Shown: positions 5,366 through 40,605 of the stretch, one piece after another | Numbering within the stretch: the stretch's first letter is position 1 | Layout of the letters: every line of letters begins with the position of its first letter | Source of the DNA: a virus | Taxonomy: Duplodnaviria > Caudoviricetes | Length of the DNA stretch: 64,000 nucleotides | IMG/VR virus record: IMGVR_UViG_2937884906_000001 | Location: 1-64,000 of that record | Reading direction: 5' to 3' (one strand) | The notes under the pieces: generated by a model | The model's input: only the letters and a program-made list of their open reading frames with translations | The model's database searches: none | What the model was told of the DNA's origin: nothing | Made by a program: the position numbers and the translations under genes

Positions 5366-5392
5366 GGGCGGGACGCAAGTCCCGCCCTTTTT
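5366..5392 (+). terminator. intrinsic terminator
   Basis: GGGCGGGAC-GCAA-GTCCCGCCC-TTTTT. Confidence 0.85.
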
Positions 5393-5415: not shown

Positions 5416-5679
5416 ATGGATACCACCGAAGACAGCCAGACCGTGGCCGCTGGACAGCTGCGAGCTTTCATCGAGCGCATCGAGCGCCTCGAAGAGGAAA
5501 AGACCACGATCACCGACGACATCAAGGAGGTCTACGCCGAGGCGGGTTCCACCGGCTTTGACAAAAAGGCCATTCGCAAAATCATCGCCCGTCGCAAGCT
5601 GGACGCCGACGAGCGCCAGGAACAGGACTCGATCCTGGATCTGTACGAGGAAGCGCTCGGGATGGCGGCGGCCGACTGA
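5416..5679 (+). CDS. gapR: GapR / DUF2312 nucleoid-associated protein
   Basis: [19 protein letters not shown]...[10 protein letters not shown]...GFD.KAIRKII signature. Confidence 0.93.
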
Positions 5680-5906
5680 TGCAGCGCCGCTCCTTTCTCA
5701 AGGCGCTCGGGCTGGCTGCTGTCCTGCCCGCTTCGTCTGCGATCAAACCGGCGGCCAAGCCGCCGGTTCTGGTCACCGCCGACGAGGTCGCCGTCAAGCA
5801 GCTATCAGGGCTTGATCTGCAGCTAGGCACGATCACCGCCGGGACGCTCCGATACCCCGGCGGGGAGCTCAATCTCAACGCGCGTTACCTGGAGATTTTC
5901 GGGTGA
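5679..5906 (+). CDS. small Tat-signal protein with tail-fibre-like C-terminal segment
   Basis: MQRRSFLK twin-arginine motif plus hydrophobic stretch; VTADEVAVKQLSGLDLQLGTITAGTL. Confidence 0.7.
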   Translation: MQRRSFLKALGLAAVLPASSAIKPAAKPPVLVTADEVAVKQLSGLDLQLGTITAGTLRYPGGELNLNARYLEIFG

Positions 5907-6673
5907 TCCGCGTTTACGACATGAACTCGTACCTGCGTGTCGAGCTGGAAACGGATGTCTCCGGCTTGGCACCACGCAACTTCATGCAGGACGTGTTCGC
6001 CTGTCCCGATCCAGTCATCTGTGTTTGGGACGGACCCAAGGGAAGCCAGAAACGCCGCGAGATTTTCCCCGGCTACAAGGTCGGCCGTAAGGCACCGGAC
6101 ACCGGCATCTACAACGGCTTCCACCTCACTCAAAAGACACTGGAGCACTCGAAGGCGGTACAGATCAAGGTCCCCGGCTACGAGGCCGACGACGTGATCG
6201 CGCTACTTGCACGCCGCTACGCGGCCCGGGGTGCCCTGGTCGCGATCTACTCAAACGACAAGGACATGTGGCAGCTCGTCGGCGAGTTCCCCAAGAACGT
6301 CGTCTGTGGTGCCAACCCGCTGAAGGGCGTCGAACCCAAGGACACCCGCCTCTACAAAACCTGGGTCGGGGACAGCTCGGACAAGATCCCTGGCGTACCC
6401 CGTTTCGGCGAGAGCTTGTGGGAGGAGAACGGCCCACGGCGCCTCCAGCGCGCCACCGACATGATCTTCGCCGGCCAGGATGGCTGGCAGAAACAGATCA
6501 AGCTCCAGCCGAAGATGGTCAGCTGGCTCGAAGAGAACCCCGACCAGTTCAAGGCCTACTGGGACATCATCGGGTTCCTCGACGTGCCGGAAGACCTCGT
6601 CACTGAGCACACCATCATCGGTCAGCCCGATTTCTACAAGGCCGACCAAGCCCTCAAGGAGTTCATGCAATGA
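5903..6673 (+). CDS. 5'-3' exonuclease / flap endonuclease
   Basis: WDGPKG..RREIFPGYK, GYEADD, SNDKD, GDSSDKIPGV (PolI N-terminal/T5 D15-like acidic motifs). Confidence 0.92.
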   Translation: MIRVYDMNSYLRVELETDVSGLAPRNFMQDVFACPDPVICVWDGPKGSQKRREIFPGYKVGRKAPDTGIYNGFHLTQKTLEHSKAVQIKVPGYEADDVIALLARRYAARGALVAIYSNDKDMWQLVGEFPKNVVCGANPLKGVEPKDTRLYKTWVGDSSDKIPGVPRFGESLWEENGPRRLQRATDMIFAGQDGWQKQIKLQPKMVSWLEENPDQFKAYWDIIGFLDVPEDLVTEHTIIGQPDFYKADQALKEFMQ

Positions 6674-24859: not shown

Positions 24860-25352
24860 GGGCAGTCACCTTGATGGTTTTGGCAATGTAGGGCCACTGG
24901 AGGAGCTCCAGCGTGTATTCGGCCGGCATGTCGGAGGAGAGTTCGAGCGTGCCGCCGGTGAGCGTCATCGGCTCGCCGTCGAGACGGACGTCACAGGGAT
25001 CCGGAATGGAAAGCGTCTTGATGTCGACGCCATCGGCGATGATCGAGATCTCATCCGGCAGATCCAGAACCGGCCGGGGAGTGACATGGTCATCGCCGGG
25101 GTTCGCGACATAGTCCGTCAGGATGTCACAGTTCTGGCTGATCTTTCCGTTCGACACCATCTTCGGCGAGCCGTCTTCGTTATAACGAAGCTCACCGGTG
25201 TCCCAGTCCTTTTCATGCTCCAGAGGCGTTGGAAGGGGCGGCAGGTTCAGCACGCCACTCTCCTTGGCAAGCATCATCTCCAGAACGGTTTCATGAACCG
25301 GGTCGGAAATGATGTGGGTGATTTGACCCTTTTCGTCGTATTCAACAATCAT
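24846..25352 (-). CDS. tail-associated hypothetical protein
   Basis: 168-aa ORF in tail operon. Confidence 0.6.
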   Translation of the reverse strand: MIVEYDEKGQITHIISDPVHETVLEMMLAKESGVLNLPPLPTPLEHEKDWDTGELRYNEDGSPKMVSNGKISQNCDILTDYVANPGDDHVTPRPVLDLPDEISIIADGVDIKTLSIPDPCDVRLDGEPMTLTGGTLELSSDMPAEYTLELLQWPYIAKTIKVTAHAPE

Positions 25353-25738
25353 AGATCCAGATCCCAGATGATATATTTCATGACCATTCCCTGTTTAAGT
25401 GGGCCGGAGTATTGGAAATTGCTGGCGTTCACCCGAACCCATGCTGAAGCATTGGTTGGAGAGGCAGAAAGAACAAAATCGTTGATGTAGAGGCCGATAT
25501 AATCATTCGGCCCTGTCGTCTCCACGCACGAGAACATAATCATCGGCATGTTCACGAACGTTTTTCCGTAATTTATCTGATTGATATTTGATTGGAATAC
25601 AACCGACCCCTTTGAATGAACCGGACCCTGACCGAAATCGCTGTCGAACAGCAGATCCTTGCCGGTCACGGTCATCACGTTGAAACCGGGTTTCGATACC
25701 TTCAGGCCGCTTGCTGTGAGAAGAACCCTGTTAGCCAA
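25349..25738 (-). CDS. tail-tip accessory protein, paralog 3
   Basis: NRVLL..GLKVSKPG.NV.T...LLFDS; TTG start; low GC. Confidence 0.7.
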   Translation of the reverse strand: MANRVLLTASGLKVSKPGFNVMTVTGKDLLFDSDFGQGPVHSKGSVVFQSNINQINYGKTFVNMPMIMFSCVETTGPNDYIGLYINDFVLSASPTNASAWVRVNASNFQYSGPLKQGMVMKYIIWDLDL

Positions 25739-26099
25739 CTGGGATCCTTAATACCGCATAGGTCATCGTTCCGTCGTTCGAGATAGAGACGTCGCAGTGG
25801 AGCTTGATCGAGGTGAAGCTCAAATATTGAGCCCATATAATAGACGTATACTGAGCATTGAACCCCGTAACCTTTGGAAAAATCATAATCATTGGAAAAA
25901 AGCCGAGGTTCGGCGTCGTGATGGTTACCTCCTTGCCTGACGGGATTGTCAAGCGACCCGTCTGAACAAACTGGAACGCCTGAAAATTCGTCGAGAACAG
26001 CAAGTCGGAGTCGGCTGCGGTCATGACGTTGACCCCCGGCTTCGAGATGAATAGTCCAATGTCCGAGCCTCTGTTTCCCAGGCAAAGTCTGTTGCTCAA
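25731..26099 (-). CDS. tail-tip accessory protein, paralog 2
   Basis: SNRL.LG..GLFISKPG.NV.TA..LLFST; TTG start. Confidence 0.7.
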   Translation of the reverse strand: MSNRLCLGNRGSDIGLFISKPGVNVMTAADSDLLFSTNFQAFQFVQTGRLTIPSGKEVTITTPNLGFFPMIMIFPKVTGFNAQYTSIIWAQYLSFTSIKLHCDVSISNDGTMTYAVLRIPVG

Positions 26100-26497
26100 A
26101 ATTGGTTTCCCATGATCGCGTAATAAACGATGTCAGAAGCGCCACTATTCCCAAGGGAGAATGTCACCGACCCGTAGGAGCTCTGCAACACGACACTGTG
26201 GTTTGTTTCGTCCGTAAGCATGATGCACCGGAGAACATTCAGTGGATAAAATAGACCTCCCTTCTTAGCCATGGCTAGACAAGACAGGCTTGTGTTGTAG
26301 AACGGAAGAGGGAGGCGGACATAATTGGAGGCTGTCAGATTGATTTGACCGACTTGCAGAATGTTGCCCGCCTCGTTCCAATCACTGCTGAAAGCCAGCT
26401 GCTCGTTCTTGACAGCAGTGGTCACATCATAACTGGGTTTCGCGATCAGCAGCTTGTAGTTGGCGCCGATCTTGCCGAGAAGAACTCTGTTCGACAT
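26096..26497 (-). CDS. tail-tip accessory protein, paralog 1
   Basis: SNRVLLG..LLIAKP.YDV.TA..LAFSS. Confidence 0.7.
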   Translation of the reverse strand: MSNRVLLGKIGANYKLLIAKPSYDVTTAVKNEQLAFSSDWNEAGNILQVGQINLTASNYVRLPLPFYNTSLSCLAMAKKGGLFYPLNVLRCIMLTDETNHSVVLQSSYGSVTFSLGNSGASDIVYYAIMGNQF

Positions 26498-29400
26498 CAG
26501 GTGTTATCCGACATGAGAAGGCGCCCATTGGTCAGGCTCCAGCTTTGCTTGCCGTCTGACGAGCGGATCTCACCGACCGTCACAAGGCCGACGTTGGCGC
26601 TGATCGCGGACAACGAGTTGGTCTCAATGCTGCCGGGACCAATCAACGTGGCACCACCAACGCTCCATGGCGACGGCTGGGTCTGGTTGTCGGTCGCCTC
26701 ACCAAAGAAGGGGCGAGCGAGCCAACAATAACAGTCCGTGCCGGCAACTTTTGGCAAGGAGCCAAGAATTACAAGAGCTTTTACGGCGCCGGCTGGAGCC
26801 GTAGCAATAACAAATTCACGACGATATAGACCAAGGTTGTAGTTTGCCAGTCCATTGTCTGGACCACCGCTAGAGATATTGCTATCTAGAATAGCTACTC
26901 CGTCAGCATTGTAAAAACGTAAAATGCCAAAGTTCTTTGTTCGGATCGTATAGAAGTATGCTGAAAGTTGATACTTCTTTCCTGGAATGACCGGGAAATA
27001 TTTAGTCGCTCCAACTGCATCGGTCGCTACAAAATAACCATAGTCAGCCGCTGCTGACCCAACAGCCGTGTATATCTGAAGCGCTCCACCCGGAGGTGCA
27101 TAACCGTCAGTTCGTATGGCAGCACCGACAGTCGCCGAGGTGCGGCTTAGTGCCCAATTGGTCAATCCGGCACTGAGATCAGCATTGTCAAGCCAGTTTC
27201 CGCCCGTGCCTACCTGAAGATGCTGTGCCTGGATCCCGCCATCAACGATCAAGCTTCCGCCATATCGTTTTCTAAGAGACCCGTACTCACACACGTAAGC
27301 GGTGTCTGGTGCGGCGCCACCGTTGGTGTCAAAAACAAGACGAGCAAACGATGCACCTACAGGAGCATTCGCAGACACCGACCTCAACGTGTGACCAGTG
27401 TCTGCGATACTCCATACTGGAAGAATGGTATTGGTGATTATAGTCGTTTTATCTGCTTTAACCCACTGACAATACATACGCAGATTGCCAATAGTGCCGG
27501 CGGTGCCCATACGCATAACGCCGGATATTTCGTAATTTTCTCCTGGGTCAACAGATATCCACTGGCTAATCGCAATATTTCCCGACGTTTGCGCCGGCAT
27601 CAACAAATCAGTTCCACTGCTATTGTAGCCAATGTTGCCAACATTCAATCTAAAGCTGGCGCTGGGGTGTAGTATTGCCCAGGCATTTTGACTGGCAAAA
27701 TACGGATCAGAATTCAGATTGTCGAAATTGGTGATCAACATCTCGCGGGCTGTGACTGAGCCTGCCTGGATGTGCCGGGACTTGATGGCGTCGGTTTGGA
27801 TGGCATCGGAGTCGATCGCGTTGACCCGCGCCTGGTCGGCGATGACCGTGCCGGTCTTCAGCTGACCACCGTCGATGATCGTGCGCCCGTAGGTGCCATC
27901 CAGGGACTTTCCCCCTTTGTAGGTCGCAACCACGATCGCGTCGTGATCGAAGGCCGTCAGAGGGTCTGTGGTGGCCGTAAGCGTCGTGGCGCCCTTCATG
28001 AAGCAAATGAAGAGGGTGCTCGTCGCCCAGGTGGCGTTGCCGGCCGCGATATTGCGCGTGGCTGTGTTGCCGTCGTCGCCGGTGTAGCGCACGACGCCAG
28101 AGGTCCACGACACCATGTTGGTGCTCGGGCTGTTGTAGTCGAAGATGATGTCCTCGACCTGAAGACCACGCTGGCCGAAGATGCCCTTGTCAGCTGTGAC
28201 GGTTCCGGTCCCCAGCTTGTTGCCGTCGATCGTCGTCAGATCGCCAGGGTTGCGCCAGTCCGACAACATGGTGTCGCCCTGGACGCGGACCTTGCCGCCT
28301 TCGATCGAGACTGAGCCACCGTTGATCAGATCCGCGAGTTCAGGGCACTCGGGCGTGACCAAAGTCTCTTCCGCGGTGGTGCCGGAGCGGTTGCCGAACT
28401 GGTCGACCGCAGACGCACGAACCTTGTAGGTCTGGAGCGGAAGCACGGTCCACTCGAACGTGGGCGTACTGGAGGTGAAGCTCACCCAGTTGCCGGCGTT
28501 CTGCTTGATCTCGAAATCGAAGTAGGCGAAGTCCTGGTCGGCCGCCGCGTTCAGGCCAGCTGTCAGGATCATGCGCTGCACGACGCCCTCGACCGTCTCC
28601 AGGCGAGAGGACAGCGCAAGGCCAGTCGGGTCAGCCGGGGGTTCGATGTCCACCGTCTGATAGGATTGAGCTAAGACCTCCTGACTGTAATTCAGTTCGG
28701 TCTTGCCCATCGTGTCGTAGAGAGCGACCACGGCGTAGCAGACACTCATGCTCGGGACCGCCACCGACAGAGTGTTGCTGTTGATGTCCATGCTGGGAGC
28801 ATGAGAGGTCGGATCTATCCCCGGCGTGTTTGAGAGCCAGATCAGGGCGCCCACATAGTCGACCAGGCCGTCGATCGGCCAGGAGAAGGAAACCGATCCG
28901 AAACCACGGTCGGCCGCCACCAGGGGTGCTGCCGGAGCGGGGTTCTTGATCAGGAAAGAGACTGGGGCCGAGTTGTTGCCGAAGAGATCGTAGGCGGTGA
29001 CCGCCACGCGCAACTGGCGCGTGGCCGCGTCGGCGCGGATCATCGCGGTCGTGTACGAGAAGGCCGGAGCGCTGACGAACACCGTTCGCAGGAGCACTTC
29101 GCTGTCGTTGAAGATCTGCACACGGTAAGAGGCGAGCGCGGGGTCACTCTCCCCAGGCTCCCACTGCAGATCAGCATGGACATCGTCGAACAGATGCAGC
29201 GCGCCGTCGACCCCAGACTGGTTGGTGAGCGTCAGGTTCTTGATCGGGGCGACCGCACGGACCTCGCCACTGAGGTCGATGTCCGCATAGCCGATGACGG
29301 ATTTTTGACCGGTCAATGCCAGCGCTTGGATCGAGAAGAGGTAGCGGCCCTGCTTGACGTCGTAGAGCTCAAACCGGGGTGTCTTCACCTCGCCGTTGAA

Positions 29401-31941
29401 CTGCCACTGGTCGTCGTTGAAACGCGAGCTGATCGAATAGGTCCGCACGAATTTGTTGGGGTGTGGATCCCATTCGACACGCAGATTTTGGACAGGGCGA
29501 CCGTTGCGGACCTCCGAGAAGGGTGTCACACGCGCGTTGGTGACGGCCGAGAGATCGGTCGGGAACTCGGGAATATCGACGACGACTGAGCCTGGTGACT
29601 CGGCGGCGGTGGGATACTTCGTCCGGTTCACCTCGATCGCGCTGATGGTAACGCTCTCGCTGTCCCCTTCCCCCTCACCACCCTCACCGATCGTGAGAAC
29701 CCGGTAAGGCTTTGCGTTCAGGCCGATAGAAAAGACTGCCTGGGTAGGAATGCCGCTTGGCAGCTGCTCGGTGACCTTGAGCACCTTTGTCGCGTGGCCA
29801 ACCGACGCCACGTCGATCGGCAAGGTTGCGAGCTCAAACTGGTTCAGGTTGATGACGATCTCGTGGTCGAAGCCGTCTTCCAAGAAGACGTTGTCCCGCA
29901 AGAAAATAAGCTGACTGCCATCAGTGCCTGTGATGCGGCCGGTGATGACGTCATCCATGGTGTCGTCGGAGACAAGGATGATCTCGTAAGGCTCGAGATA
30001 GAGACCCTCGCGCGCCGTCTCGAACGTGACCGTTTCCACTTCGGTCTGATCAGTCAGCAGCTTGACCGTTGCCCGGAAGATGGCCTCGTCGGCGTTGTTA
30101 CAACCTACCGCGATGAAATCGTCGGGAGCACGCCCGTACGCGTCGATCGCCGGCTGGGACCTGACACGCCGCTGGTCTTGGGCGTAGAAGAGCGCCGGGT
30201 TTTTGAAGGCAACCGTGTAGTCGTTGATGCGGCTTTCGATTTCCGTATAGGAATACTTGAAGATGCCGTTTTTGACGTTCTCCTTGGCGAACAGATGGAC
30301 TGCCGGCGCTTGGCCGTTGTCCAGGCGCAGCCGGCCGTAGCCGTTGCCGTCGTCAAAGAAGCGACCACCGAACACACCGAAAATGTAGGTGGCCAGCTCG
30401 CGCGGCGATTGGGGGTCTTTGATCAGCTGGTTGAAGGTGAATTGGGGCTTGCCGTTGGGGAGCCGGATATCGCACCACTGGCCCGCCTCATAGACGTCGA
30501 AAGGATCGAGCGTGATCGGATAGGTGGAGCTCATGCCATAGACGTCGTTCTCGACCATGTCGTAGCCGACGAAGGCAGGGTTATTGCTGTAGGCCTGCTT
30601 CCAGGTGCCGTCCCAGATGCCTGCGTAGGTGCGAGCCACTGGGTCGTAGTTCGAGGGCACCTTGACGATCCGTCCTTCGTAGACGCCCTGAAACGTCGGC
30701 AGGCTGGAGAACTGATCGCTGGCCCTGCCCTTCAGACGGATGGTTGCCAGGTTCGGGAACAGCAGCGGCTCTGCCTTCACCTCCTGGAAGCTCTCCCAGG
30801 AGACGTCGGTGCGATCGTCTTCGAGATCGTCGCTGTCCGTCGTCAGCTTGGTGACGCGGATGTCGTACGGGACGCCGATACGGTCGACCTTGATCCGCAC
30901 TTCCTTGACGGCGTTCGAGGTGATCTTCTCGTTGACATGAAGAACGCCATTCTGGGAAATGATCTTGTTGCCGGCGGTGGGGTCATAAGTGCCCTTTGCC
31001 GGAAGCGACGTGACCCAGGCAGCGCCATTGAACCACAATAAGCGGGCGGAGGCCGGATTGTACCAAAGGTCACCGACCCGGGGGCTGGCGGGCGTGCCAG
31101 ACGTCCAGAAATAGATGGTGCGCTTGATGTCCGACCGGGTTGGGTCGATCAGGGCGATGTAGTTCGCATCCTCGAAGGTGGCGCTCTCCCGACCGACCGT
31201 GGCGTCAACGGTGAGACCGTCAGGAACATAGAACTCCTCATTCGAATAGAACTTCGGGTGGAACTCACCCGCGGCCGAATTGATCCACCACACGCGGTTG
31301 CCATAGGCGGGCGCCAGGGCACGCTCTTCGGAGGTCGGGTCCGGCTCGGCAGGTTGGTTGTAGATCACCTGAGTACGGCCGGCGGTCATGGCCGATACGA
31401 TGTCACCGCGGTGGACGACCTTCAGACTGTTCTCATACTGCTGGGTCGTCGTTCCGATCTCGGCATACAGGACTGGAAGCTGCCAAGTTGCTTCGTCGGA
31501 CGGCTTGATCTCGATCCTCACATCGAGATCTCGGGCGCTCGTCCCGTCCTCATTTGAACGCAGGAGTTGATTGATGACGAGACGGAGCTCCAGCCAGTCG
31601 ATGTCGACTTGCGAGCCCTGTCTGGTGACGCCAACATTCTGCGCGAGACTGCTACTGACGGTCGTGCTGGTGGCCTGGCCACCCAGCGACAAGACGATGA
31701 GCTCGCCCTGCGGTGACCCCACATTCACGTCGAGCTCAAAATCCTGAAAATTGGGGCTTCCGTTTGCGTTGAGCAGCGGGGTTTCGCCAATGTAGAAGTT
31801 CTTGGCGCTGTTGTCCTTCAGACCCTTGATCTTGCCTTCGGAGACGGCCAGAACCACTTCGACGATATCGTCGGTGAAATAGCTGTCGGGACTATTGCTC
31901 GCCCCACCGCCACCAAAGCCGCTGCCTGCAAACTTACGCAT
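26497..31941 (-). CDS. central tail fibre / host specificity protein (lambda J-like)
   Basis: 1814 aa; GRIVKVPSNYDP...YAGIWDG.WK.A..NNPA, FN3-like repeats, beta-helix repeats, two C-terminal CBM-like modules. Confidence 0.93.
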   Translation of the reverse strand: MRKFAGSGFGGGGASNSPDSYFTDDIVEVVLAVSEGKIKGLKDNSAKNFYIGETPLLNANGSPNFQDFELDVNVGSPQGELIVLSLGGQATSTTVSSSLAQNVGVTRQGSQVDIDWLELRLVINQLLRSNEDGTSARDLDVRIEIKPSDEATWQLPVLYAEIGTTTQQYENSLKVVHRGDIVSAMTAGRTQVIYNQPAEPDPTSEERALAPAYGNRVWWINSAAGEFHPKFYSNEEFYVPDGLTVDATVGRESATFEDANYIALIDPTRSDIKRTIYFWTSGTPASPRVGDLWYNPASARLLWFNGAAWVTSLPAKGTYDPTAGNKIISQNGVLHVNEKITSNAVKEVRIKVDRIGVPYDIRVTKLTTDSDDLEDDRTDVSWESFQEVKAEPLLFPNLATIRLKGRASDQFSSLPTFQGVYEGRIVKVPSNYDPVARTYAGIWDGTWKQAYSNNPAFVGYDMVENDVYGMSSTYPITLDPFDVYEAGQWCDIRLPNGKPQFTFNQLIKDPQSPRELATYIFGVFGGRFFDDGNGYGRLRLDNGQAPAVHLFAKENVKNGIFKYSYTEIESRINDYTVAFKNPALFYAQDQRRVRSQPAIDAYGRAPDDFIAVGCNNADEAIFRATVKLLTDQTEVETVTFETAREGLYLEPYEIILVSDDTMDDVITGRITGTDGSQLIFLRDNVFLEDGFDHEIVINLNQFELATLPIDVASVGHATKVLKVTEQLPSGIPTQAVFSIGLNAKPYRVLTIGEGGEGEGDSESVTISAIEVNRTKYPTAAESPGSVVVDIPEFPTDLSAVTNARVTPFSEVRNGRPVQNLRVEWDPHPNKFVRTYSISSRFNDDQWQFNGEVKTPRFELYDVKQGRYLFSIQALALTGQKSVIGYADIDLSGEVRAVAPIKNLTLTNQSGVDGALHLFDDVHADLQWEPGESDPALASYRVQIFNDSEVLLRTVFVSAPAFSYTTAMIRADAATRQLRVAVTAYDLFGNNSAPVSFLIKNPAPAAPLVAADRGFGSVSFSWPIDGLVDYVGALIWLSNTPGIDPTSHAPSMDINSNTLSVAVPSMSVCYAVVALYDTMGKTELNYSQEVLAQSYQTVDIEPPADPTGLALSSRLETVEGVVQRMILTAGLNAAADQDFAYFDFEIKQNAGNWVSFTSSTPTFEWTVLPLQTYKVRASAVDQFGNRSGTTAEETLVTPECPELADLINGGSVSIEGGKVRVQGDTMLSDWRNPGDLTTIDGNKLGTGTVTADKGIFGQRGLQVEDIIFDYNSPSTNMVSWTSGVVRYTGDDGNTATRNIAAGNATWATSTLFICFMKGATTLTATTDPLTAFDHDAIVVATYKGGKSLDGTYGRTIIDGGQLKTGTVIADQARVNAIDSDAIQTDAIKSRHIQAGSVTAREMLITNFDNLNSDPYFASQNAWAILHPSASFRLNVGNIGYNSSGTDLLMPAQTSGNIAISQWISVDPGENYEISGVMRMGTAGTIGNLRMYCQWVKADKTTIITNTILPVWSIADTGHTLRSVSANAPVGASFARLVFDTNGGAAPDTAYVCEYGSLRKRYGGSLIVDGGIQAQHLQVGTGGNWLDNADLSAGLTNWALSRTSATVGAAIRTDGYAPPGGALQIYTAVGSAAADYGYFVATDAVGATKYFPVIPGKKYQLSAYFYTIRTKNFGILRFYNADGVAILDSNISSGGPDNGLANYNLGLYRREFVIATAPAGAVKALVILGSLPKVAGTDCYCWLARPFFGEATDNQTQPSPWSVGGATLIGPGSIETNSLSAISANVGLVTVGEIRSSDGKQSWSLTNGRLLMSDNT

Positions 31942-34790: not shown

Positions 34791-35170
34791 GGCTGGAGGA
34801 TGAACTCGACGTTGACCTGCTCGGTTTGGCCGTTGCCCTTCTCGACGCCTTTGGGCACCTGGAGCGGCTTGGAGAAACGAACTTTGACCAAACCACGGCG
34901 CGGGTGTGGGTAGTTGAATGGCTCGTAGAGCCGATGGGCCTCGTAGAAGTCTTGCAAGCATTGCATGTTGCGTTGGGGCTCGCGGACGGCGTCCACAACA
35001 CCAGGACTGCTCTCGAAGAACCACATCGCTTTGAAGGCCAGCTTGAAGGTGATCTGGTCCGGCCCGTTGGGCTTGGTGGCGAACTGGTAGCCGCCGCCAA
35101 ACTGGATCACGGTCGAACTCTGCGGATATTCATCCGCCACGGTGTGAAAGGGAAAGTCGAAGGTCTGCAT
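34787..35170 (-). CDS. minor tail protein M-like (distal tail)
   Basis: IQFGGGYQ, FYEAH..Y.PF; immediately after tape measure. Confidence 0.75.
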   Translation of the reverse strand: MQTFDFPFHTVADEYPQSSTVIQFGGGYQFATKPNGPDQITFKLAFKAMWFFESSPGVVDAVREPQRNMQCLQDFYEAHRLYEPFNYPHPRRGLVKVRFSKPLQVPKGVEKGNGQTEQVNVEFILQP

Positions 35171-38100
35171 CATATCTTCCCAGAGTTGATCGCCTTGATC
35201 AGCGAGCGGGTCACGCCACGGCGGCGGATGTCGTCGCTGATGTACGCCACGACGTCGTCGGGCCCGAGCTGCGGCTTCTCTTCCGGCAGGACCGCCCACA
35301 CGTTCACCGGCCGCTGATCAGCCGGCTGTGGGGCCGGAAGGGTCGGCATCCCGGCGGAGATCCGGCGGTTACCCAGCGCGTTCACTTTCTCCAAGGAGTC
35401 ACGGCCGATCTGATTGACCGCCGAGGCACGCAGGATCATTTCTCCAGGCATCACTTTGCGGAGCTGGCTGTCGCGAAACGGCGTGGTGCCGCCGGGGATC
35501 ATCTCACCGTTGGCCGACCGCTTGACGCCCGCGATGTACTGGCCGGTGGCGGCGCCGCCAACGAGCATGCTGAAGAAGCTGCCGATGCCGGAGCTCGCAC
35601 CGCTGCCGCCCATCAGACCTTGCAGCATGTTAAAGACCAGCGCCTTGGCAATCATCTGCATGAGCATCTGGACGACGGACAGGCCGAACTTCTTGAAGGC
35701 CTCGCCGGCCGACATGGAGCCTGATGCAAGGTCAGTGAACAAGGTGCCCATCGAGTTGGCGATGCCGTCGAGCGCCTGGCCCCAAGCCGCACCGGCCTTT
35801 TGAGCCGACGAGATCATGTTGCCGTTCGCATCCATGATGCCGTTGCGCTGCATCCAGGCGCGGTTCGCTGCCTCGATCGCATCCTTCAGTGTCATCTCGC
35901 CCTGGGCAGCGGCCTGGGTGTCGGCGGTGGACTGCCGGCGTACGCCCGTCAGGCTCTGCTCGACCGAATACTGACGCTCCTTCAACGCTTGGACGATCTG
36001 GCTGTTGGCGCCATACTGCTGCTCGGCCGCGGCTACCTGCTGGAGGATGTAGGCGTGGAGCTGCTCAAGCTGGTTCAGACGCTCCTGCTGAGCGGCCTGC
36101 TGCTGGAGCTGCACATCGTGCTGCGCATCCTGGACCTGAGAGTCAGTGTACTTGCTCGCATAGAGCGGGTTCTGCATTGCCGAGAGCTTGGCCTGCGCCT
36201 CTTCGAGCGGTTTGAACTCCATGTTCTCAATGGATTGCTGGTAGCGATCGAGCAGCGTGACGATCTTGCCGCCCAGGCCGCTCTCCAGTTGCTCCTTCAG
36301 GGCGGCCAGACGTTCATCGAAACCATCGGTGCCCTCATTGGCTTTGGTGAAGGAGTCGATCTCCTTCGTCGCCATGTCGGCCCACTTGGTCTTGACCTGA
36401 TCGATGATCGACTGAAGGGCCTGCGGGTCCTGCGCCTTGGACGACTGGACCATCAATGTGTTGATCTGAGCCTCGATCGCCTTGGCCTGGCTGTCGAGAA
36501 GCTTGGTCGCCGCCTTGACTTGGTTCTTCTGGATCTTGTCGGTAGCCGAGCGCATCGCATCGCTCGCACCTTCGGTCAGGTTTTTGGTCTGCGTATCCAG
36601 GGCATCGTCGGCCGCGTCGACCGGCTTCTCCACCATGTCCTTGACCTTGGCCAGGTGCTGGCTGGCCTTGGCCATGATCATGTCGAGGAACTGCTGGGCG
36701 GTCTGCGTGATGTTGCCGCCGTTGCCCGCGACGACATCGGAACCCAAGACGGCCACTGCGTTGCCGTTCGGGTTCTGGACGGCTTTCTGGTAGCCAGATT
36801 GGCCGAGCAGGTGCGAGCCGTAATAGTCCTGGAAGGAGAGCTGGGTGGAGCCCATTTCCTTTTGGGTACGCAGCATGTCCTGGATGCCGGCGTAGATCTG
36901 CATGTCGACGCTGCTGCGGTCACCGGGCGCCAGGCCATGGCTCGCCCAGTTCGCATCCGTGTTCTGATAGATGCCTGCGGCGGTCGAGCCTGGGTTCTTG
37001 GCGTTTGGTTTGAAGCCACTCTCGAATGAGGCAATGGCGAGCGCGATTTGCGGCGGGATCCCGGCCTTGTTCGCGGCCTCAATGATCTTGCGCTGAATGT
37101 CGTTGGCGCTGGCCGAAGGCAGGCCGCCCACGGCGAACGAGCCATAGTCCTGCGAGACGCTGATCCCGGCGATCTGGCCGGCGAGCTCCTGAGCCTTCTT
37201 GTTCAGCTCGTCCAGCTTCTCCTTGACGGTCTTGATGTAATCCGCGGTGGAGTTGTTATCGATCGACTGGGCGAGATTTTTCATCTCGTCCTGAACGCGC
37301 TTCAGCTGGTCGTTGAGGTTGTCGTCGAACGTCTCGTTGGCGACTTTGGCGAGCTCGGCCCGCTTCTCGATCACCGACTGGACGAGATCATCACGGCGCG
37401 TCTTAGCCGCGTCACGGATCTGGCGCTTGGCCAACTCCAGATCGGCATCGTTGCCGCCGACATTCTTGTCGGGGTCGGCGTCAAAGGCATCCTGCTCCAG
37501 CTTGGCCAGTTTGCCGTCGAGGGCGTAGAGCTGGTTCTCAAGCAGATCGACCTGACGTTCGTTCTGAGCATCGCCCAACTGCTTCTTGACCGCAGCAACC
37601 TGGCGCTCGACGTTCTTCTGCTCCTGCTCGGCCATGTAGGCCTGGAACTTCTTGAAGGCCTTGACGGAGCCCTCGGCGCCTTTCTTGAACTCGCCCTGGA
37701 GACCAGCGATGTTGGTCTTTAGCTCGCTCCCATCGACGGCGTCCTTGATCTCCTTGTCCGAGAAGTCGCCGGACTTGCGCATCTCATCGGCCGCGGCCTT
37801 GAGACCCTCGTTGATCTTCTCGATACGCTTGTCGAGCTCGGCCTGAAGCTCGTCGTAGGCGGCCTTCGTCTGCTCGATCGGCAGATCCGATTTGATGATC
37901 TCGCCCAGCCTGCTCGACAGCCAGCCGGTGGTCTCGGTCTTGAGCCTGTCGGCCGTCTGGTAGCCGGGAGTGCTCTGGAGCGTTGCAGCGGACTGCTTCG
38001 AGACCTGGACGGTGCGGTCGGCTTTCTCCGCCTGGATCTGCACCAGATATTTGGAGATTGGATCAAAGCCTTCCCGCAATGACTTCAGGAAGTCGAGGTT

Positions 38101-40605
38101 CTTCTTCAGGGTGGCGAGCTGGGTGCTTTCACCTTCGGAGAGGTCGCCGCCGATACCCATGAAGCCATTGCGGGCATCGAGCGGCTTGATCTTTCGCTCG
38201 GTGGACAGGATCAGGCGCTCCAACATGACCCCCAAAGCCTGGGCCCGCTGCCCGTCGACTTTGTCCAGGTCCGTTACCTGGTTGGTGGATATCTTGAAGG
38301 CGTCGGCGATGTCCTTGCCAAACTCCTGGGCAACCTTGTCGTTGTAGGAAGGAATGTCCCGGGTCTCGACTGCGCCACCGACGCCGAAGCGCCGAGAAGC
38401 ACCCAAGGAGGCGGTCCAGTAGCTATTGCCACTCGCCTGATCACTGGCGGCTTCACGCAACAGTCCAGTCTTCTCATCGATCTTGTCGACCAGTAGGCCG
38501 AACTGTTCGGGCAGACCCTTGACCATCTCGGCTTTGAGGTTCTGCATGGCCTTGATGAGGTCAGCGACAGAGGACGAAGAGGCGTCGATCTCTCCGGTCA
38601 GTTCCTGGAAGGTGGACAGCACCTCCATGACCTTCGTCTTGCGCAGCATGTCGCTGCCCGCGTCCAGGCTCTTCTGCTTCTGCGAGAGGTCGTCCAGCGT
38701 CGTGGTGAGGCTGGTGAGCCGGTCGGTGGTGTTGTCGATGGACGCCTGATACTCGTTCTGTTCGGTTTTCAGCCGGTCGAGCGTGCTCGCCACCCGGCCA
38801 GCCGTGTCGCCATAGGCCGAAAGGGCCTGCACCACGCCGAGCACGATCGTGGCGCCCAGGAAGATCGGGTTGCCGAGAGTGGCAGCGCGCAAGACCGTGA
38901 AGGCACCTGCCGCGCCGGTCGCCGCCGTGCCGAGACCAATGAGGCCCGCTACCAGCCTGCCGAGCTTGACCAGGAGAGCGGCCGAGACCAGCGTTGCGAT
39001 CGCAGTGCCGACAATCTGCACGAGGGGCTGAAGTTCCCGGAGCCAGGCGATCACGCTTGACCCAGTTGAAACGGTGTTCTGCAGAGTGCGGATGAACGGC
39101 TGGAATGCGGTGTAGACCAGGGCGCCGAGGTTCGACCCGAAGTTCTTCGCCGTGTTGGCGAGCGACTCCATCTGGGTCTGGTTCGCCTCGGCCGCAGCGT
39201 TGGTCAGAAGGAAGGACTGCCGGAGCTCCGACATCGTGTCCAGGTTGTTTGCGAGTGCCGTGTAGGCGGCGGCGGCACGCACCTCGAGACCGTTGAACGC
39301 GCTCGACGTATCGAAGCCGGCGTTCTTGAGGTTCTCCAGGACGCCCGAGAGGCCGTGTGATTTGAGATCGATGTCCTCCAGCGACAGGCCGAGACGGGAG
39401 AGCTCGGCCTTGAGGTTCTTGGAAGGTGTGATCAGGTCCACCAGGAGCTGGCGCATGCCGGTGCCGATGGTCGAGCCGGATCTGATGCCGGCGTTGGCCA
39501 TCGCGCCAACGGCAGCAGTCAGTTCGTTGTAGCTGACACCCACGGTTGCCGCGGTGTTGCCAGCGTACTGAAGGGCGGCCGACAACTGGTCGAGCGTCAG
39601 CTTGCTCTCGTTCAGAGCAGCGGTGAAGACGTCGGCCAGGTGGCCCGCCTCGCCCGCCTGAAGACCGAAGATGTTCAGAGAGCTGGTGACGAGATCGACG
39701 GCGTCCTTCAACTCAGTGCCGGCAGCGGTCGCCAGCTTGGCCACCGGTTCGATGGCCTCAGAGACCTGCCCAGCCGACATGCCTGCTTGGCCCATCAGGG
39801 TCGCAGCTTCGGAGATCTCATTGGCAGTGAACTTGGTCTTCTCCGACACCGAAAGGAGCCGATCCTCCATCAGCCCCATCTCGGCGTTGGTGGAGGCAGT
39901 GATGGCCTGGAACTGCTTGAACTGCTCGTCGAGGTTGACGATGAAGTTTCCGAGGCTGAAGGCCGCGCTGTAAGCGCCACCCACCATGGCGTAATTGTTG
40001 AGGATGCCAGCCTGGGACAGAAACTGGTTGGCGCCGCCATTCAGGTTCCGGCGCTCGCTCTGCTTCTGGAAACCATACGCAGCGTCACCCAGCCGCGCGC
40101 GGTTGTTGCGGTCGGTCATCCGGTTCCGGAGCAGTGTCTCTTCGCTCTCCAGATTGGTGAGCGACCGCTTGACCGCCTTGAGGTAGGTGGAGTTGACTTC
40201 GTCGAGATACTTGCCCACCAGCTGGTTGGTGGTCGACTTCATCTCGGAAATTTCGCGCTGGAAGGCTGCACGGTTGGCCTGGGACTGCTCGGTGCCCAGG
40301 GCGTAGTCTCGAGCCACGGCGGCCGGCGCCGAACGCTGCCGATTGCGGATCTGGGAAAGGCGGGCCTCGTGGGCGGCTGTGTCCTGGCCCTGCTTGCGCA
40401 GCGAGGCCATCTCGCTCTCAAGCTTCTTGATGTACGAGACGTATTCCTGTGCCGCCTTGCGCATGTTCTGTTGAACCTGCGTGGAGTTGACGGCGAGGTC
40501 GTCACTGAACGTTTTCAGTTTGTTGCGGAGCTGATCGATTTCTCGAAGACTGTCCTGCAGGTCGATATCGACGTCATACAGGATGTCATTCTGCTCAAGC
40601 GCCAA
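35170..40605 (-). CDS. tape measure protein with lytic transglycosylase (SLT) domain
   Basis: 1811 aa; TP901-like core; ALAIASFESGF.PNA.N..S.AAG.YQ SLT motif. Confidence 0.93.
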   Translation of the reverse strand: MALEQNDILYDVDIDLQDSLREIDQLRNKLKTFSDDLAVNSTQVQQNMRKAAQEYVSYIKKLESEMASLRKQGQDTAAHEARLSQIRNRQRSAPAAVARDYALGTEQSQANRAAFQREISEMKSTTNQLVGKYLDEVNSTYLKAVKRSLTNLESEETLLRNRMTDRNNRARLGDAAYGFQKQSERRNLNGGANQFLSQAGILNNYAMVGGAYSAAFSLGNFIVNLDEQFKQFQAITASTNAEMGLMEDRLLSVSEKTKFTANEISEAATLMGQAGMSAGQVSEAIEPVAKLATAAGTELKDAVDLVTSSLNIFGLQAGEAGHLADVFTAALNESKLTLDQLSAALQYAGNTAATVGVSYNELTAAVGAMANAGIRSGSTIGTGMRQLLVDLITPSKNLKAELSRLGLSLEDIDLKSHGLSGVLENLKNAGFDTSSAFNGLEVRAAAAYTALANNLDTMSELRQSFLLTNAAAEANQTQMESLANTAKNFGSNLGALVYTAFQPFIRTLQNTVSTGSSVIAWLRELQPLVQIVGTAIATLVSAALLVKLGRLVAGLIGLGTAATGAAGAFTVLRAATLGNPIFLGATIVLGVVQALSAYGDTAGRVASTLDRLKTEQNEYQASIDNTTDRLTSLTTTLDDLSQKQKSLDAGSDMLRKTKVMEVLSTFQELTGEIDASSSSVADLIKAMQNLKAEMVKGLPEQFGLLVDKIDEKTGLLREAASDQASGNSYWTASLGASRRFGVGGAVETRDIPSYNDKVAQEFGKDIADAFKISTNQVTDLDKVDGQRAQALGVMLERLILSTERKIKPLDARNGFMGIGGDLSEGESTQLATLKKNLDFLKSLREGFDPISKYLVQIQAEKADRTVQVSKQSAATLQSTPGYQTADRLKTETTGWLSSRLGEIIKSDLPIEQTKAAYDELQAELDKRIEKINEGLKAAADEMRKSGDFSDKEIKDAVDGSELKTNIAGLQGEFKKGAEGSVKAFKKFQAYMAEQEQKNVERQVAAVKKQLGDAQNERQVDLLENQLYALDGKLAKLEQDAFDADPDKNVGGNDADLELAKRQIRDAAKTRRDDLVQSVIEKRAELAKVANETFDDNLNDQLKRVQDEMKNLAQSIDNNSTADYIKTVKEKLDELNKKAQELAGQIAGISVSQDYGSFAVGGLPSASANDIQRKIIEAANKAGIPPQIALAIASFESGFKPNAKNPGSTAAGIYQNTDANWASHGLAPGDRSSVDMQIYAGIQDMLRTQKEMGSTQLSFQDYYGSHLLGQSGYQKAVQNPNGNAVAVLGSDVVAGNGGNITQTAQQFLDMIMAKASQHLAKVKDMVEKPVDAADDALDTQTKNLTEGASDAMRSATDKIQKNQVKAATKLLDSQAKAIEAQINTLMVQSSKAQDPQALQSIIDQVKTKWADMATKEIDSFTKANEGTDGFDERLAALKEQLESGLGGKIVTLLDRYQQSIENMEFKPLEEAQAKLSAMQNPLYASKYTDSQVQDAQHDVQLQQQAAQQERLNQLEQLHAYILQQVAAAEQQYGANSQIVQALKERQYSVEQSLTGVRRQSTADTQAAAQGEMTLKDAIEAANRAWMQRNGIMDANGNMISSAQKAGAAWGQALDGIANSMGTLFTDLASGSMSAGEAFKKFGLSVVQMLMQMIAKALVFNMLQGLMGGSGASSGIGSFFSMLVGGAATGQYIAGVKRSANGEMIPGGTTPFRDSQLRKVMPGEMILRASAVNQIGRDSLEKVNALGNRRISAGMPTLPAPQPADQRPVNVWAVLPEEKPQLGPDDVVAYISDDIRRRGVTRSLIKAINSGKI

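What the first reader, a model, noticed from the sequence alone, without database searches (positions are those of the whole stretch)
5679..5906. Tat-signal micro-protein whose mature part resembles the C-terminal beta-helix of a central tail fibre
Seen: N-terminus [18 protein letters not shown] is a textbook twin-arginine signal. The C-terminal part, VTADEVAVKQLSGLDLQLGTITAGTLRYPGGELNLNARYLEIFG, aligns by eye with the end of this phage's own J protein (NSLSAISANVGLVTVGEIRSSDGKQSWSLTNGRLLM; L,S,G,T,G,R identical over 17 residues, several others conservative). It also matches the generic tail-fibre repeat TADK...LSAI.ANLG.ITAG. Yet the gene lies in the replication operon between gapR and the exonuclease. 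Established: Tat exports folded, often oligomeric proteins. Inference: an exported trimeric mimic of the tail tip acting as a superinfection-exclusion or receptor-blocking decoy, or a decoy against defences that sense or modify tail fibres. I do not know of a described system like this.
Basis: partly seen in the sequence, partly recalled or inferred. Interest (0 to 1): 0.72.

Follow-up and report, generated by a model that had tools for sequence, protein, structure and literature searches.

The report
Exported mini-protein built from tail-tip end
A Mesorhizobium prophage carries a real 75-residue gene that joins a twin-arginine export signal to a diverged copy of the last 44 residues of a phage central tail fibre (J). 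It belongs to a small, undescribed family whose members resemble their own phage's J end, so the phage probably sends a piece of its tail tip into the cell envelope; what it does there is untested.

Summary
ORF 5679-5906 (+) is the best-coding frame and is start/stop-coupled to gapR and the 5'-3' exonuclease. It begins with the canonical RRSFLK twin-arginine motif.

- **Tail-fibre similarity.** Residues 32-75 align, up to the stop codon, with the C-terminal "end module" of J-type tail proteins. Against an Agrobacterium-type J, BLASTP gives E 1e-7. hhalign against 22 J ends gives 91.7%, E 8e-7. The match to this phage's own J is weaker (Smith-Waterman 43; 1 of 2000 shuffles).
- **Accessory cassette.** Of 12 related prophages, 8 have an empty gapR-exo junction, 2 carry this gene and 2 carry a NUDIX gene.
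- **Selection.** Between the two copies, the signal plus linker is under purifying selection (dN/dS 0.11, p 3e-4). The mature part changes at a neutral-like rate (1.2).
- **More members.** Three further members lie in other rhizobial prophages, in tail or terminase regions. One ends with the same 12 residues as the J gene just upstream of it. Cognate mini-J pairing is the best of 24 permutations.

My best guess is an envelope-located tail-tip mimic of the superinfection-exclusion type.

Earlier notes of this scan report Tat-leader/virion-fragment genes in other, unrelated phages.

The parts
5366..5387 (+). Terminator-like hairpin with T tail upstream of gapR. It marks the start of the gapR-ORF75-exo-polA run.
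   Evidence: conserved in the relatives aligned.
5416..5679 (+). gapR (GapR-like DNA-binding protein, 87 aa). Its TGA stop overlaps the ORF75 ATG (TGATG).
   Evidence: Pfam PF10073, E 3e-32; sequence.
5679..5906 (+). ORF75, the whole gene (75 codons plus stop).
   Evidence: An identical protein is called in NCBI Mesorhizobium assemblies.
5679..5741 (+). Twin-arginine-type signal peptide, residues 1-21: RRSFLK, a hydrophobic stretch, and SSA before the likely cleavage site.
   Evidence: HMM scores just under cut-offs. dN/dS 0.11 for signal plus linker against the L004 copy. The same leader type occurs on TRAP binding proteins. The cleavage site is read by eye.
5742..5771 (+). Pro/Ala/Lys-rich linker, residues 22-31. 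KPAAKP is identical in the L004 copy.
5772..5903 (+). Diverged copy of the J-type tail-fibre end module, residues 32-75.
5891..5905 (+). GGAG (5891-5894), which lies in the Leu-Glu codons of ORF75, followed 8 nt later by the exonuclease GTG start (5903-5905). The insert supplies the exonuclease's translation start.
   Evidence: Relatives without the insert start the exonuclease at the ATG that ORF75 uses here.
5903..6673 (+). 5'-3' exonuclease (256 aa).
   Evidence: Pfam PF02739, E 1e-21.
26497..31941 (-). J-type central tail fibre / host-specificity protein (1814 aa).
   Evidence: Pfam FNIII-A_GpJ and Phage-tail_3.
26500..26640 (-). End module of this phage's own J (last 47 residues). It is a relative of the mature part of ORF75.

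Best explanation
SHOWN. ORF75 is a translated, optional accessory gene of a Mesorhizobium prophage. It is a chimera of three parts:
- a twin-arginine-type signal peptide;
- a short Pro/Lys linker;
- one diverged copy of the roughly 45-residue module that ends many J-type central tail fibres.

It belongs to a small family with five distinct members found. All share the leader. Their mature parts are patched from, and most resemble, the J protein of their own phage.

INFERRED. The leader takes the peptide across the inner membrane, probably through Tat, and signal peptidase releases a mature peptide of about 54 residues into the periplasm.

MOST LIKELY ROLE (inference, about 40%). It acts as an envelope-located stand-in for the phage's own tail-tip end. 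It would interfere with a step that depends on the J end, such as adsorption, triggering or envelope passage by phages with the same tip type. That would mean exclusion of homotypic superinfection, or protection of progeny from dead-end adsorption, in the manner of T5 Llp or T4 Spackle but by mimicry. Fast change of the mature part and matching to the resident J would then reflect tracking of a fast-changing tail tip.
For: Gene reality:
- It is the best coding frame of six.
- It is an exact ORF-sized indel with coupling kept on both sides.
- A second copy in L004 has 13 synonymous against 6 non-synonymous changes in signal plus linker (dN/dS 0.11, binomial p 3e-4).

Leader:
- It has the RRSFLK consensus.
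- Near-threshold Tat HMM scores.
- The profile's N-terminal third hits Tat leaders of TRAP binding proteins.

Tail origin:
- all point to J ends. The alignment runs to the stop codon in both.

Family and cognate matching:
- G282 mini (L137): it lies about 400 nt downstream of a J-like gene. Its last 12 residues are identical to those of that J, with DNA identity 36 of 37.
- G089 mini (L138): it lies among tail genes and carries two patches of its own J in swapped order.
- L144 mini: it is hit by a profile built from J ends only.
- The cognate diagonal of the mini-by-J score matrix is the best of 24 permutations.

Precedents for small periplasmic phage proteins that block receptor or tail-tip function: T5 Llp (PMC9586334) and T4 Spackle (PMC7677548, abstract).
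Against: - The mature part evolves at a neutral-like rate between the two close copies (dN/dS 1.2).
- Positions identical between these copies do not coincide with family-conserved positions (p 0.76).
- The most conserved core of the module (LSAIxAN) is degraded in both copies.
- The C-terminal Leu-Glu codons double as the exonuclease ribosome-binding site, which explains some of the conservation.
- The window's ORF75 is not most similar to its own J: 43 against 48 for a relative's J and 84 for an Agrobacterium-type J.
- Cognate similarity could be a by-product of gene conversion between similar sequences in one genome.
- The periplasm gives no direct access to the outer face of a receptor.
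- The genes sit in early, late and terminase-proximal positions, so there is no common timing.
- The Tat HMM scores are below the curated cut-offs.
- There are no expression or export data.
Confidence: 0.42

Rival explanations
1. Exported, but the function is unrelated to tail-tip mimicry. The conserved leader and linker carry the function, for example by occupying or modulating the Tat translocon or signal peptidase, or by acting as a membrane-active peptide. Alternatively the mature peptide acts on a host periplasmic target, and the J-derived piece is only a convenient filler.
For: Only the leader and linker are under clear purifying selection. The leader is the part shared by all five members. 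The mature parts differ in length and make-up (72-95 aa).
Against: All five members keep a J-derived patch despite their different contexts. Two of them carry near-identical stretches of their own J. That is hard to explain if the mature part were arbitrary.
Confidence: 0.22
2. A translated but effectively neutral chimera: a moron-like by-product of illegitimate recombination between a signal-peptide-coding piece and the 3' end of a tail gene. It is carried along because it preserves translational coupling of the exonuclease.
For: It is rare: 2 of 12 close relatives, and 2 of about 825 sampled genomes. The mature part evolves at a neutral-like rate with a degraded module core. The same junction also takes unrelated cargo, a NUDIX gene.
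Against: Purifying selection on the leader is unexpected for a neutral ORF (p 3e-4). The same leader-plus-J-patch design recurs in four genomic contexts, each with a good ribosome-binding site or coupling. There is cognate matching to J.
Confidence: 0.2
3. Tat 'hitch-hiker' adaptor. The J-like module co-assembles in the cytoplasm with a signal-less partner that carries the same module (J itself or a fibre protein) and carries it across the membrane, or it poisons its trimerisation.
For: Tat is known to export folded hetero-oligomers on a single leader (established knowledge of hydrogenase and DMSO reductase export). The G282 mini shares an identical C-terminal 12-mer with the adjacent J. Earlier scan notes report exported fibre proteins in other phages (unchecked).
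Against: J is 843-1814 residues per chain and is needed in the cytoplasm for virion assembly. No partner has been identified.
Confidence: 0.06
4. Not a gene: a chance open frame in GC-rich DNA.
For: It is short. Its GC3 (0.78) is lower than that of its neighbours (0.83-0.89), and its codon score is 0.15 against 0.5-0.7 for them.
Against: It is the best of six frames. It forms a precise cassette with coupling at both ends. It has a conserved homologue with a synonymous excess in the leader, and further family members with their own ribosome-binding sites.
Confidence: 0.03

Closest known systems
C-terminal end module of J-type central tail fibres / host-specificity proteins. There is no Pfam family for it. 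PHROG tail families 1101, 32822, 1330 and 5616 cover it.
   Same: The mature part of ORF75 aligns with it over 44 columns up to the stop codon. The module is widespread, occurring in rhizobia, Firmicutes, gamma- and beta-proteobacteria. It lies at the extreme C-terminus in 31 of 107 loci.
   Different: In tail proteins the module ends a chain of 800-1800 residues and follows a carbohydrate-binding-module-like beta-sandwich. Here it stands alone behind an export signal. Its conserved core is degraded, and ORF75 itself hits no PHROG.
Bacterial twin-arginine signal peptides (PF10518 / TIGR01409), for example on TRAP solute-binding proteins.
   Same: It has the RRSFLK consensus, a moderately hydrophobic h-region, an A-x-A site and basic residues after the site. 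The profile's first third hits such leaders in cellular proteins.
   Different: HMM scores are just below the curated cut-offs. The leader is short (21-24 residues). The cargo is a 50-70-residue phage peptide, not a cofactor enzyme or binding protein.
T5 Llp and Cor-type superinfection-exclusion lipoproteins.
   Same: They are small, phage-encoded, envelope-located proteins that stop homotypic adsorption and dead-end adsorption to debris. Llp is periplasmic and acts on the receptor from inside (PMC9586334). The G282 family member lies next to the J gene; from my own knowledge, llp likewise lies next to the T5 receptor-binding protein gene.
   Different: ORF75 has no lipobox cysteine, no sequence similarity and a Tat-type rather than a lipoprotein signal. 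It is derived from the tail protein itself rather than being a receptor binder of independent origin. In this window it sits in the replication operon.
T4 Spackle (and, from my own knowledge, Ltp of Streptococcus phage TP-J34).
   Same: These are small exported phage proteins that act on a tail-tip component of the incoming phage (Spackle-gp5 lysozyme: PMC7677548, abstract).
   Different: They bind the tail component and are not fragments of it. They have Sec or lipoprotein signals. No similarity was found in any library.
Earlier notes of this scan on other phages (e1-5781446, e1-5704117, e1-5767177, e1-3543575, e1-3417090).
   Same: They describe a Tat-type leader fused to pieces or copies of virion proteins. 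The genes are often small and lie among early or replication genes. One note describes permuted fibre fragments, as in the G089 member here.
   Different: These are unrelated phages, and a look-up by sequence found no match. They are AI notes that I did not check.

Membership tests
Twin-arginine (Tat) signal peptides (PF10518, TIGR01409) | Consensus S/T-R-R-x-F-L-K at the end of the n-region | tested here: met
   Q-R-R-S-F-L-K at residues 2-8. RR-[ST]-F-L is invariant in all five family members.
Twin-arginine (Tat) signal peptides (PF10518, TIGR01409) | HMM score at or above the curated cut-off | tested here: not met
   PF10518 scores 18.4 against 22.7. TIGR01409 scores 15.9 against 16.7. Two of five members reach E <= 0.1.
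Twin-arginine (Tat) signal peptides (PF10518, TIGR01409) | Hydrophobic h-region followed by a signal-peptidase I site (small residues at -3 and -1) | tested here: met
   ALGLAAVLPA followed by S-S-A|I. Equivalent A-x-A-type sites are present in the other members. Read by eye; no SignalP was available.
Twin-arginine (Tat) signal peptides (PF10518, TIGR01409) | Export depends on TatABC and on the RR pair | not testable with these tools
   Needs fractionation in the wild type against tatC and RR-to-KK variants.
J-type tail-fibre end module | Significant sequence or profile similarity over the whole module | tested here: met
   BLASTP E 1e-7. hhalign 91.7%, E 7.7e-7, over 44 columns. Smith-Waterman 84 with 0 of 2000 shuffles reaching it.
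J-type tail-fibre end module | Module ends at the protein's C-terminus | tested here: met
   The alignment runs to within one residue of both stop codons.
J-type tail-fibre end module | Conserved core L-S-A-I-x-A-N-L-G | tested here: not met
   ORF75 has L-S-G-L-D-L-Q-L-G and the L004 copy has V-L-L-R-D-L-Q-I-G. The family-invariant A, I, A and N are replaced.
J-type tail-fibre end module | Part of a large virion tail protein | tested here: not met
   It is a stand-alone 75-aa ORF behind a signal peptide in the replication operon.
J-type tail-fibre end module | Trimeric fold (the claimed beta-helix) | tested here: inconclusive
   The AF2 monomer has mean pLDDT 64 and shows only a hairpin at residues 56-65. 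The module in J context has pLDDT 45-68.
Llp/Cor-type superinfection-exclusion lipoproteins | Lipobox with an invariant cysteine | tested here: not met
   There is no cysteine in ORF75 or in any family member.
Llp/Cor-type superinfection-exclusion lipoproteins | Gene adjacent to the receptor-binding / tail-fibre gene | tested here: not met
   In the window it lies between gapR and the exonuclease, about 20 kb from J. The feature is met only for the G282 relative.
Llp/Cor-type superinfection-exclusion lipoproteins | Blocks adsorption or infection by the cognate phage | not testable with these tools
   Needs adsorption and plating assays.
Known anti-phage defence proteins (PADLOC) | Match to any defence-system model | tested here: not met
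   No hit at E <= 1.

The most novel reading that the evidence does not exclude
Rhizobial prophages, and possibly many unrelated phages noted earlier by this scan, carry a mobile 'leader cassette' that exports a piece of the phage's own tail tip into the envelope. Recombination keeps that piece matched to the resident J gene. The exported tip fragment would compete with, cap or pre-occupy whatever the J end contacts during infection. That would be a mimicry-based, self-specific superinfection-exclusion or progeny-protection system whose specificity updates automatically when the tail tip changes.
Probability: 0.3. Interest if true: 0.8.

Novelty: new variant of a known kind. Interest (0 to 1): 0.6.

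Why it matters
Known exclusion proteins bind the receptor or an incoming tail part, and their origins are unrelated to the virion. A protein made from the phage's own tail tip, exported by a folded-protein pathway and kept matched to the resident tail gene, would differ in two ways. It would be a new way to build self-specific exclusion. It would also point to which part of the large J proteins meets the envelope.

The end module is widespread and has no Pfam family or solved structure, so a 50-residue stand-alone version is a handy object for structural and binding work. The recurrence of Tat-leader/virion-fragment genes in other phages (earlier scan notes) suggests a general but undescribed strategy.

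If the gene proves neutral, it is still a clear example of how phages create new exported proteins at gene junctions.

Tried and rejected
- **Expression:** no RNA holder was listed, so nothing is known on expression.
- **Word-based protein search and pattern scans with ORF75 or A1:** these returned only ORF75 itself or the L004 copy. The metagenome hits were Tat leaders of TRAP binding proteins only.
- **Search for other short signal-peptide forms:** none among the 107 loci that carry the J end module. None in an order-level sample of 401 genomes.
- **Structure:** the AF2 monomer models were too weak to name a fold for the module. ESM Atlas results were at chance level. PDB sequence and profile searches found nothing significant. 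A weak match (E 0.7) to the 8von/8vol 'Spike protein' was not followed up.
- **Family libraries:** PHROGs and PADLOC gave no hit for ORF75.
- **Structural constraint test:** I asked whether positions kept between the two close copies coincide with family-conserved positions. They do not.
- **Recent capture from a J gene:** rejected for the window copy. It shares only 30-39-nt patches at 82-87% identity with Agrobacterium-type J 3' ends.
- **P0006 (cadherin-repeat protein):** rejected as a repeat-inflated false hit.
- **Sigma-70-like site inside gapR (5558-5585):** rejected as a private promoter, because near-identical sequence is present in relatives without the gene.
- **Literature:** searches for Tat-exported phage proteins, tail-fibre decoys and the motif itself found no description.
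- **Look-up failures:** three encoding-contig runs failed on the server, and P0036 is not on record.

Full report
**1. The observation**

The window is the first 64 kb of a 79.8-kb IMG/VR provirus. The same DNA lies in Mesorhizobium assemblies next to cobalamin genes.

ORF 5679-5906 (+) encodes 75 residues. Its ATG overlaps the gapR stop (TGATG). Its stop overlaps the GTG start of the 5'-3' exonuclease (GTGA). gapR and the exonuclease are confirmed by Pfam. DNA polymerase A, a sigma factor, a ligase and thymidylate synthase follow.

Of the six frames over this stretch only the ORF75 frame has a positive codon-usage score. Its GC3 is 0.78, somewhat lower than in its neighbours.

**2. The leader**

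Residues 2-8 are Q-R-R-S-F-L-K, the twin-arginine consensus. They are followed by ALGLAAVLPA and then S-S-A before I22.

- Pfam TAT_signal and TIGR01409 both match but stay just under their curated cut-offs (18.4/22.7 and 15.9/16.7 bits).
- Scans with the family profile repeatedly pull out the leaders of TRAP solute-binding proteins with the same M-x-RRSFLK start.
- No other ORF in the window has an RR leader.

Tat dependence itself cannot be tested here.

**3. The mature part**

An exhaustive phmmer search of 1.8 billion representatives found, besides ORF75 itself, four large proteins. One of them has a Prophage_tail domain. Each carries 3-7 copies of a repeat of the type ITADKLSV-QLSAIS-NLGTLTAG, which matches ORF75 residues 28-58 (E 6e-12 to 3e-5). 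A fifth hit, a cadherin-repeat protein, is an artefact of repeats.

A search with the last 80 residues of this phage's J protein (26497-31941, -) retrieved Mesorhizobium and Agrobacterium vitis J proteins. Their last 46 residues align with ORF75 residues 32-75 without rearrangement and end at the same point.

| Comparison | Result |
|---|---|
| BLASTP, ORF75 vs Agrobacterium-type J | 35 bits, E 1e-7, 46% identity |
| Smith-Waterman vs Agrobacterium-type J | 84; 0 of 2000 shuffles reach it |
| Smith-Waterman vs a relative's J (G003) | 48; 1 of 2000 |
| Smith-Waterman vs this phage's own J | 43; 1 of 2000 |
| hhalign, two ORF75-type proteins vs 22 J ends | 91.7%, E 7.7e-7, 44 columns to the C-terminus |

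The module is widespread, occurring in rhizobia, Firmicutes, gamma- and beta-proteobacteria. In 31 of 107 loci it lies at the very end of the protein. It has no Pfam family and no solved relative by sequence. In J it follows a beta-sandwich that resembles carbohydrate-binding modules and tailspike domains.

Its own fold remains unknown. AF2 monomer models give only a hairpin at ORF75 residues 56-65 (pLDDT about 85). In the J context the module has low confidence.

**4. An optional cassette**

I examined twelve prophages whose exonuclease is 71-100% identical. Their gapR-exo junction is:
- empty in eight, with the gapR stop overlapping the exonuclease ATG;
- occupied by an ORF75-type gene in two, the window and L004;
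- occupied by a NUDIX gene in two, once together with an unrelated acidic 86-aa ORF.

The DNA alignment shows an exact ORF-sized insert. The insert takes over the old exonuclease ATG for itself. It gives the exonuclease a new GGAG (5891-5894) and a new GTG start.

**5. Selection**

The window and L004 proteins are 61% identical.

| Region or gene | dN/dS | Detail |
|---|---|---|
| ORF75 signal plus linker | 0.11 | 13 synonymous, 6 non-synonymous; binomial p 3e-4 |
| ORF75 mature part | 1.2 | 11 synonymous, 35 non-synonymous |
| gapR | 0.21 | |
| exonuclease | 0.18 | |

The frame is thus translated and the leader matters. The mature part is either free to drift or under diversifying selection. 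Positions identical between the two copies do not coincide with family-conserved positions, and the L-S-A-I-x-A-N core is lost.

**6. A wider family**

A six-frame profile search of 401 genomes of the same GTDB family found two more full-length members. An IMG/VR scan found a third.

- **G282 (72 aa).** It lies about 400 nt downstream of an 843-aa J-like gene and is TGATG-coupled to the next tail gene. Its mature part is colinear with the last 45 residues of that J. Its last 12 residues are identical to those of J, with DNA identity 36 of 37.
- **G089 (86 aa).** It lies between two tail genes upstream of an 883-aa J-like gene (I read the flanking pair as gpM- and gpL-like by position only). 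It carries an ANIGSVTA patch that is 87% identical over 30 nt to its own J. This is followed by a VFEADQF patch, which in J lies upstream of the end module, so the order is swapped.
- **L144 (95 aa).** It lies just upstream of genes I read as terminase genes. A profile built from J ends alone hits it at E 0.0025.

All five members share M-x-RR-[ST]-FL and an A-x-A-type site. L137 and L138 have their own ribosome-binding sites, as does L144.

In the 4 x 4 matrix of minis against the J proteins of their own genomes, the cognate assignment has the highest total of all 24 permutations (p = 1/24).

No further mini was found in 23 genomes of one genus or in 401 of the order. In those searches the profile split cleanly into Tat leaders of cellular proteins and ends of tail proteins. 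The family is rare.

**7. Interpretation**

Three things are shown:
- the gene is chimeric and translated;
- it is optional;
- it belongs to a family with a constrained Tat-type leader and a J-derived, J-matched mature part.

Two things are inferred: export to the periplasm, and an action connected with the J tip. I favour an exclusion or progeny-protection role by mimicry, at about 40%. The reasons are that the mature part tracks the resident J, that one member lies beside J, and that small periplasmic phage proteins are known to block receptors or tail-tip parts (T5 Llp, PMC9586334; T4 Spackle, abstract).

Several points count against it:
- the neutral-like rate and the degraded core of the mature part;
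- the lack of a route from the periplasm to the outer face of a receptor;
- the varied genomic positions;
- the possibility that cognate similarity is only gene conversion.

The rivals are a leader-centred or unrelated envelope function, a neutral chimera, a Tat hitch-hiker adaptor, and a non-gene.

**8. Comparison and novelty**

It is not a member of any Pfam, PHROG, NCBIfam or PADLOC family. It fails the lipobox test for Llp/Cor. No searched paper describes Tat-exported tail-fibre fragments.

Earlier notes of this scan describe Tat leaders joined to virion-protein fragments in several unrelated phages. I did not check those notes. A look-up by sequence found no relative among them.

I rate this a new variant of the small exported phage accessory or exclusion proteins, with a more novel reading not excluded.

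Noticed in passing
window 5679-5906; L127:1064-1501; L131:795-1500: The gapR-exonuclease junction is a hot spot for cargo. Relatives carry a 145-147-aa NUDIX hydrolase there, once preceded by an unrelated acidic 86-aa ORF.
   Followed up: partly
window 26096-26497, 25731-26099, 25349-25738 (all -); L140:13840-14996 (+): Three small paralogous genes (133, 122 and 129 aa, starting MSNRV/MANRV...) lie directly downstream of J. The same trio follows the J-like gene of the G089 prophage, which also carries a Tat mini-protein. Their function is unknown.
   Followed up: no
L016:6916-7605 (model m766fa87ebd1d); window 26500-27189 (-): The domain just before the J end module is a beta-sandwich that matches carbohydrate-binding modules (CBM16/4/22/6), phage tailspike domains and the mycobacteriophage Douge central fibre (Foldseek E 5e-7 to 1e-5). 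It is probably a sugar-binding receptor domain.
   Followed up: partly
window 5558-5585 (+): A sigma-70-like site (TTGACA-16-AATCAT, 10 of 12) lies inside gapR, about 95 nt upstream of ORF75. Near-identical sequence occurs in relatives without ORF75, so it is probably chance.
   Followed up: partly
L145:3001-3267: A low-GC (46%) viral contig encodes an 88-aa protein with the same MKRRSFLKAL leader but an unrelated, cysteine-containing mature part. It is another small Tat-leader phage protein.
   Followed up: no
window 35170-40605 (-): The tape-measure protein (1811 aa) carries an SLT lytic transglycosylase domain, so this phage digests peptidoglycan during entry.
   Followed up: no
L144:2699-2989: In the G814 provirus the mini gene is preceded by a 96-aa ORF with a hydrophobic N-terminal segment. 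The two overlap and lie just upstream of the genes I read as terminase genes, so they may form a pair of envelope proteins.
   Followed up: no
L013:1501-1968; L015:1501-1980: J ends differ sharply among close relatives of this prophage. G002 and G001 have extended or duplicated end modules, as expected for a fast-changing host-range determinant.
   Followed up: partly
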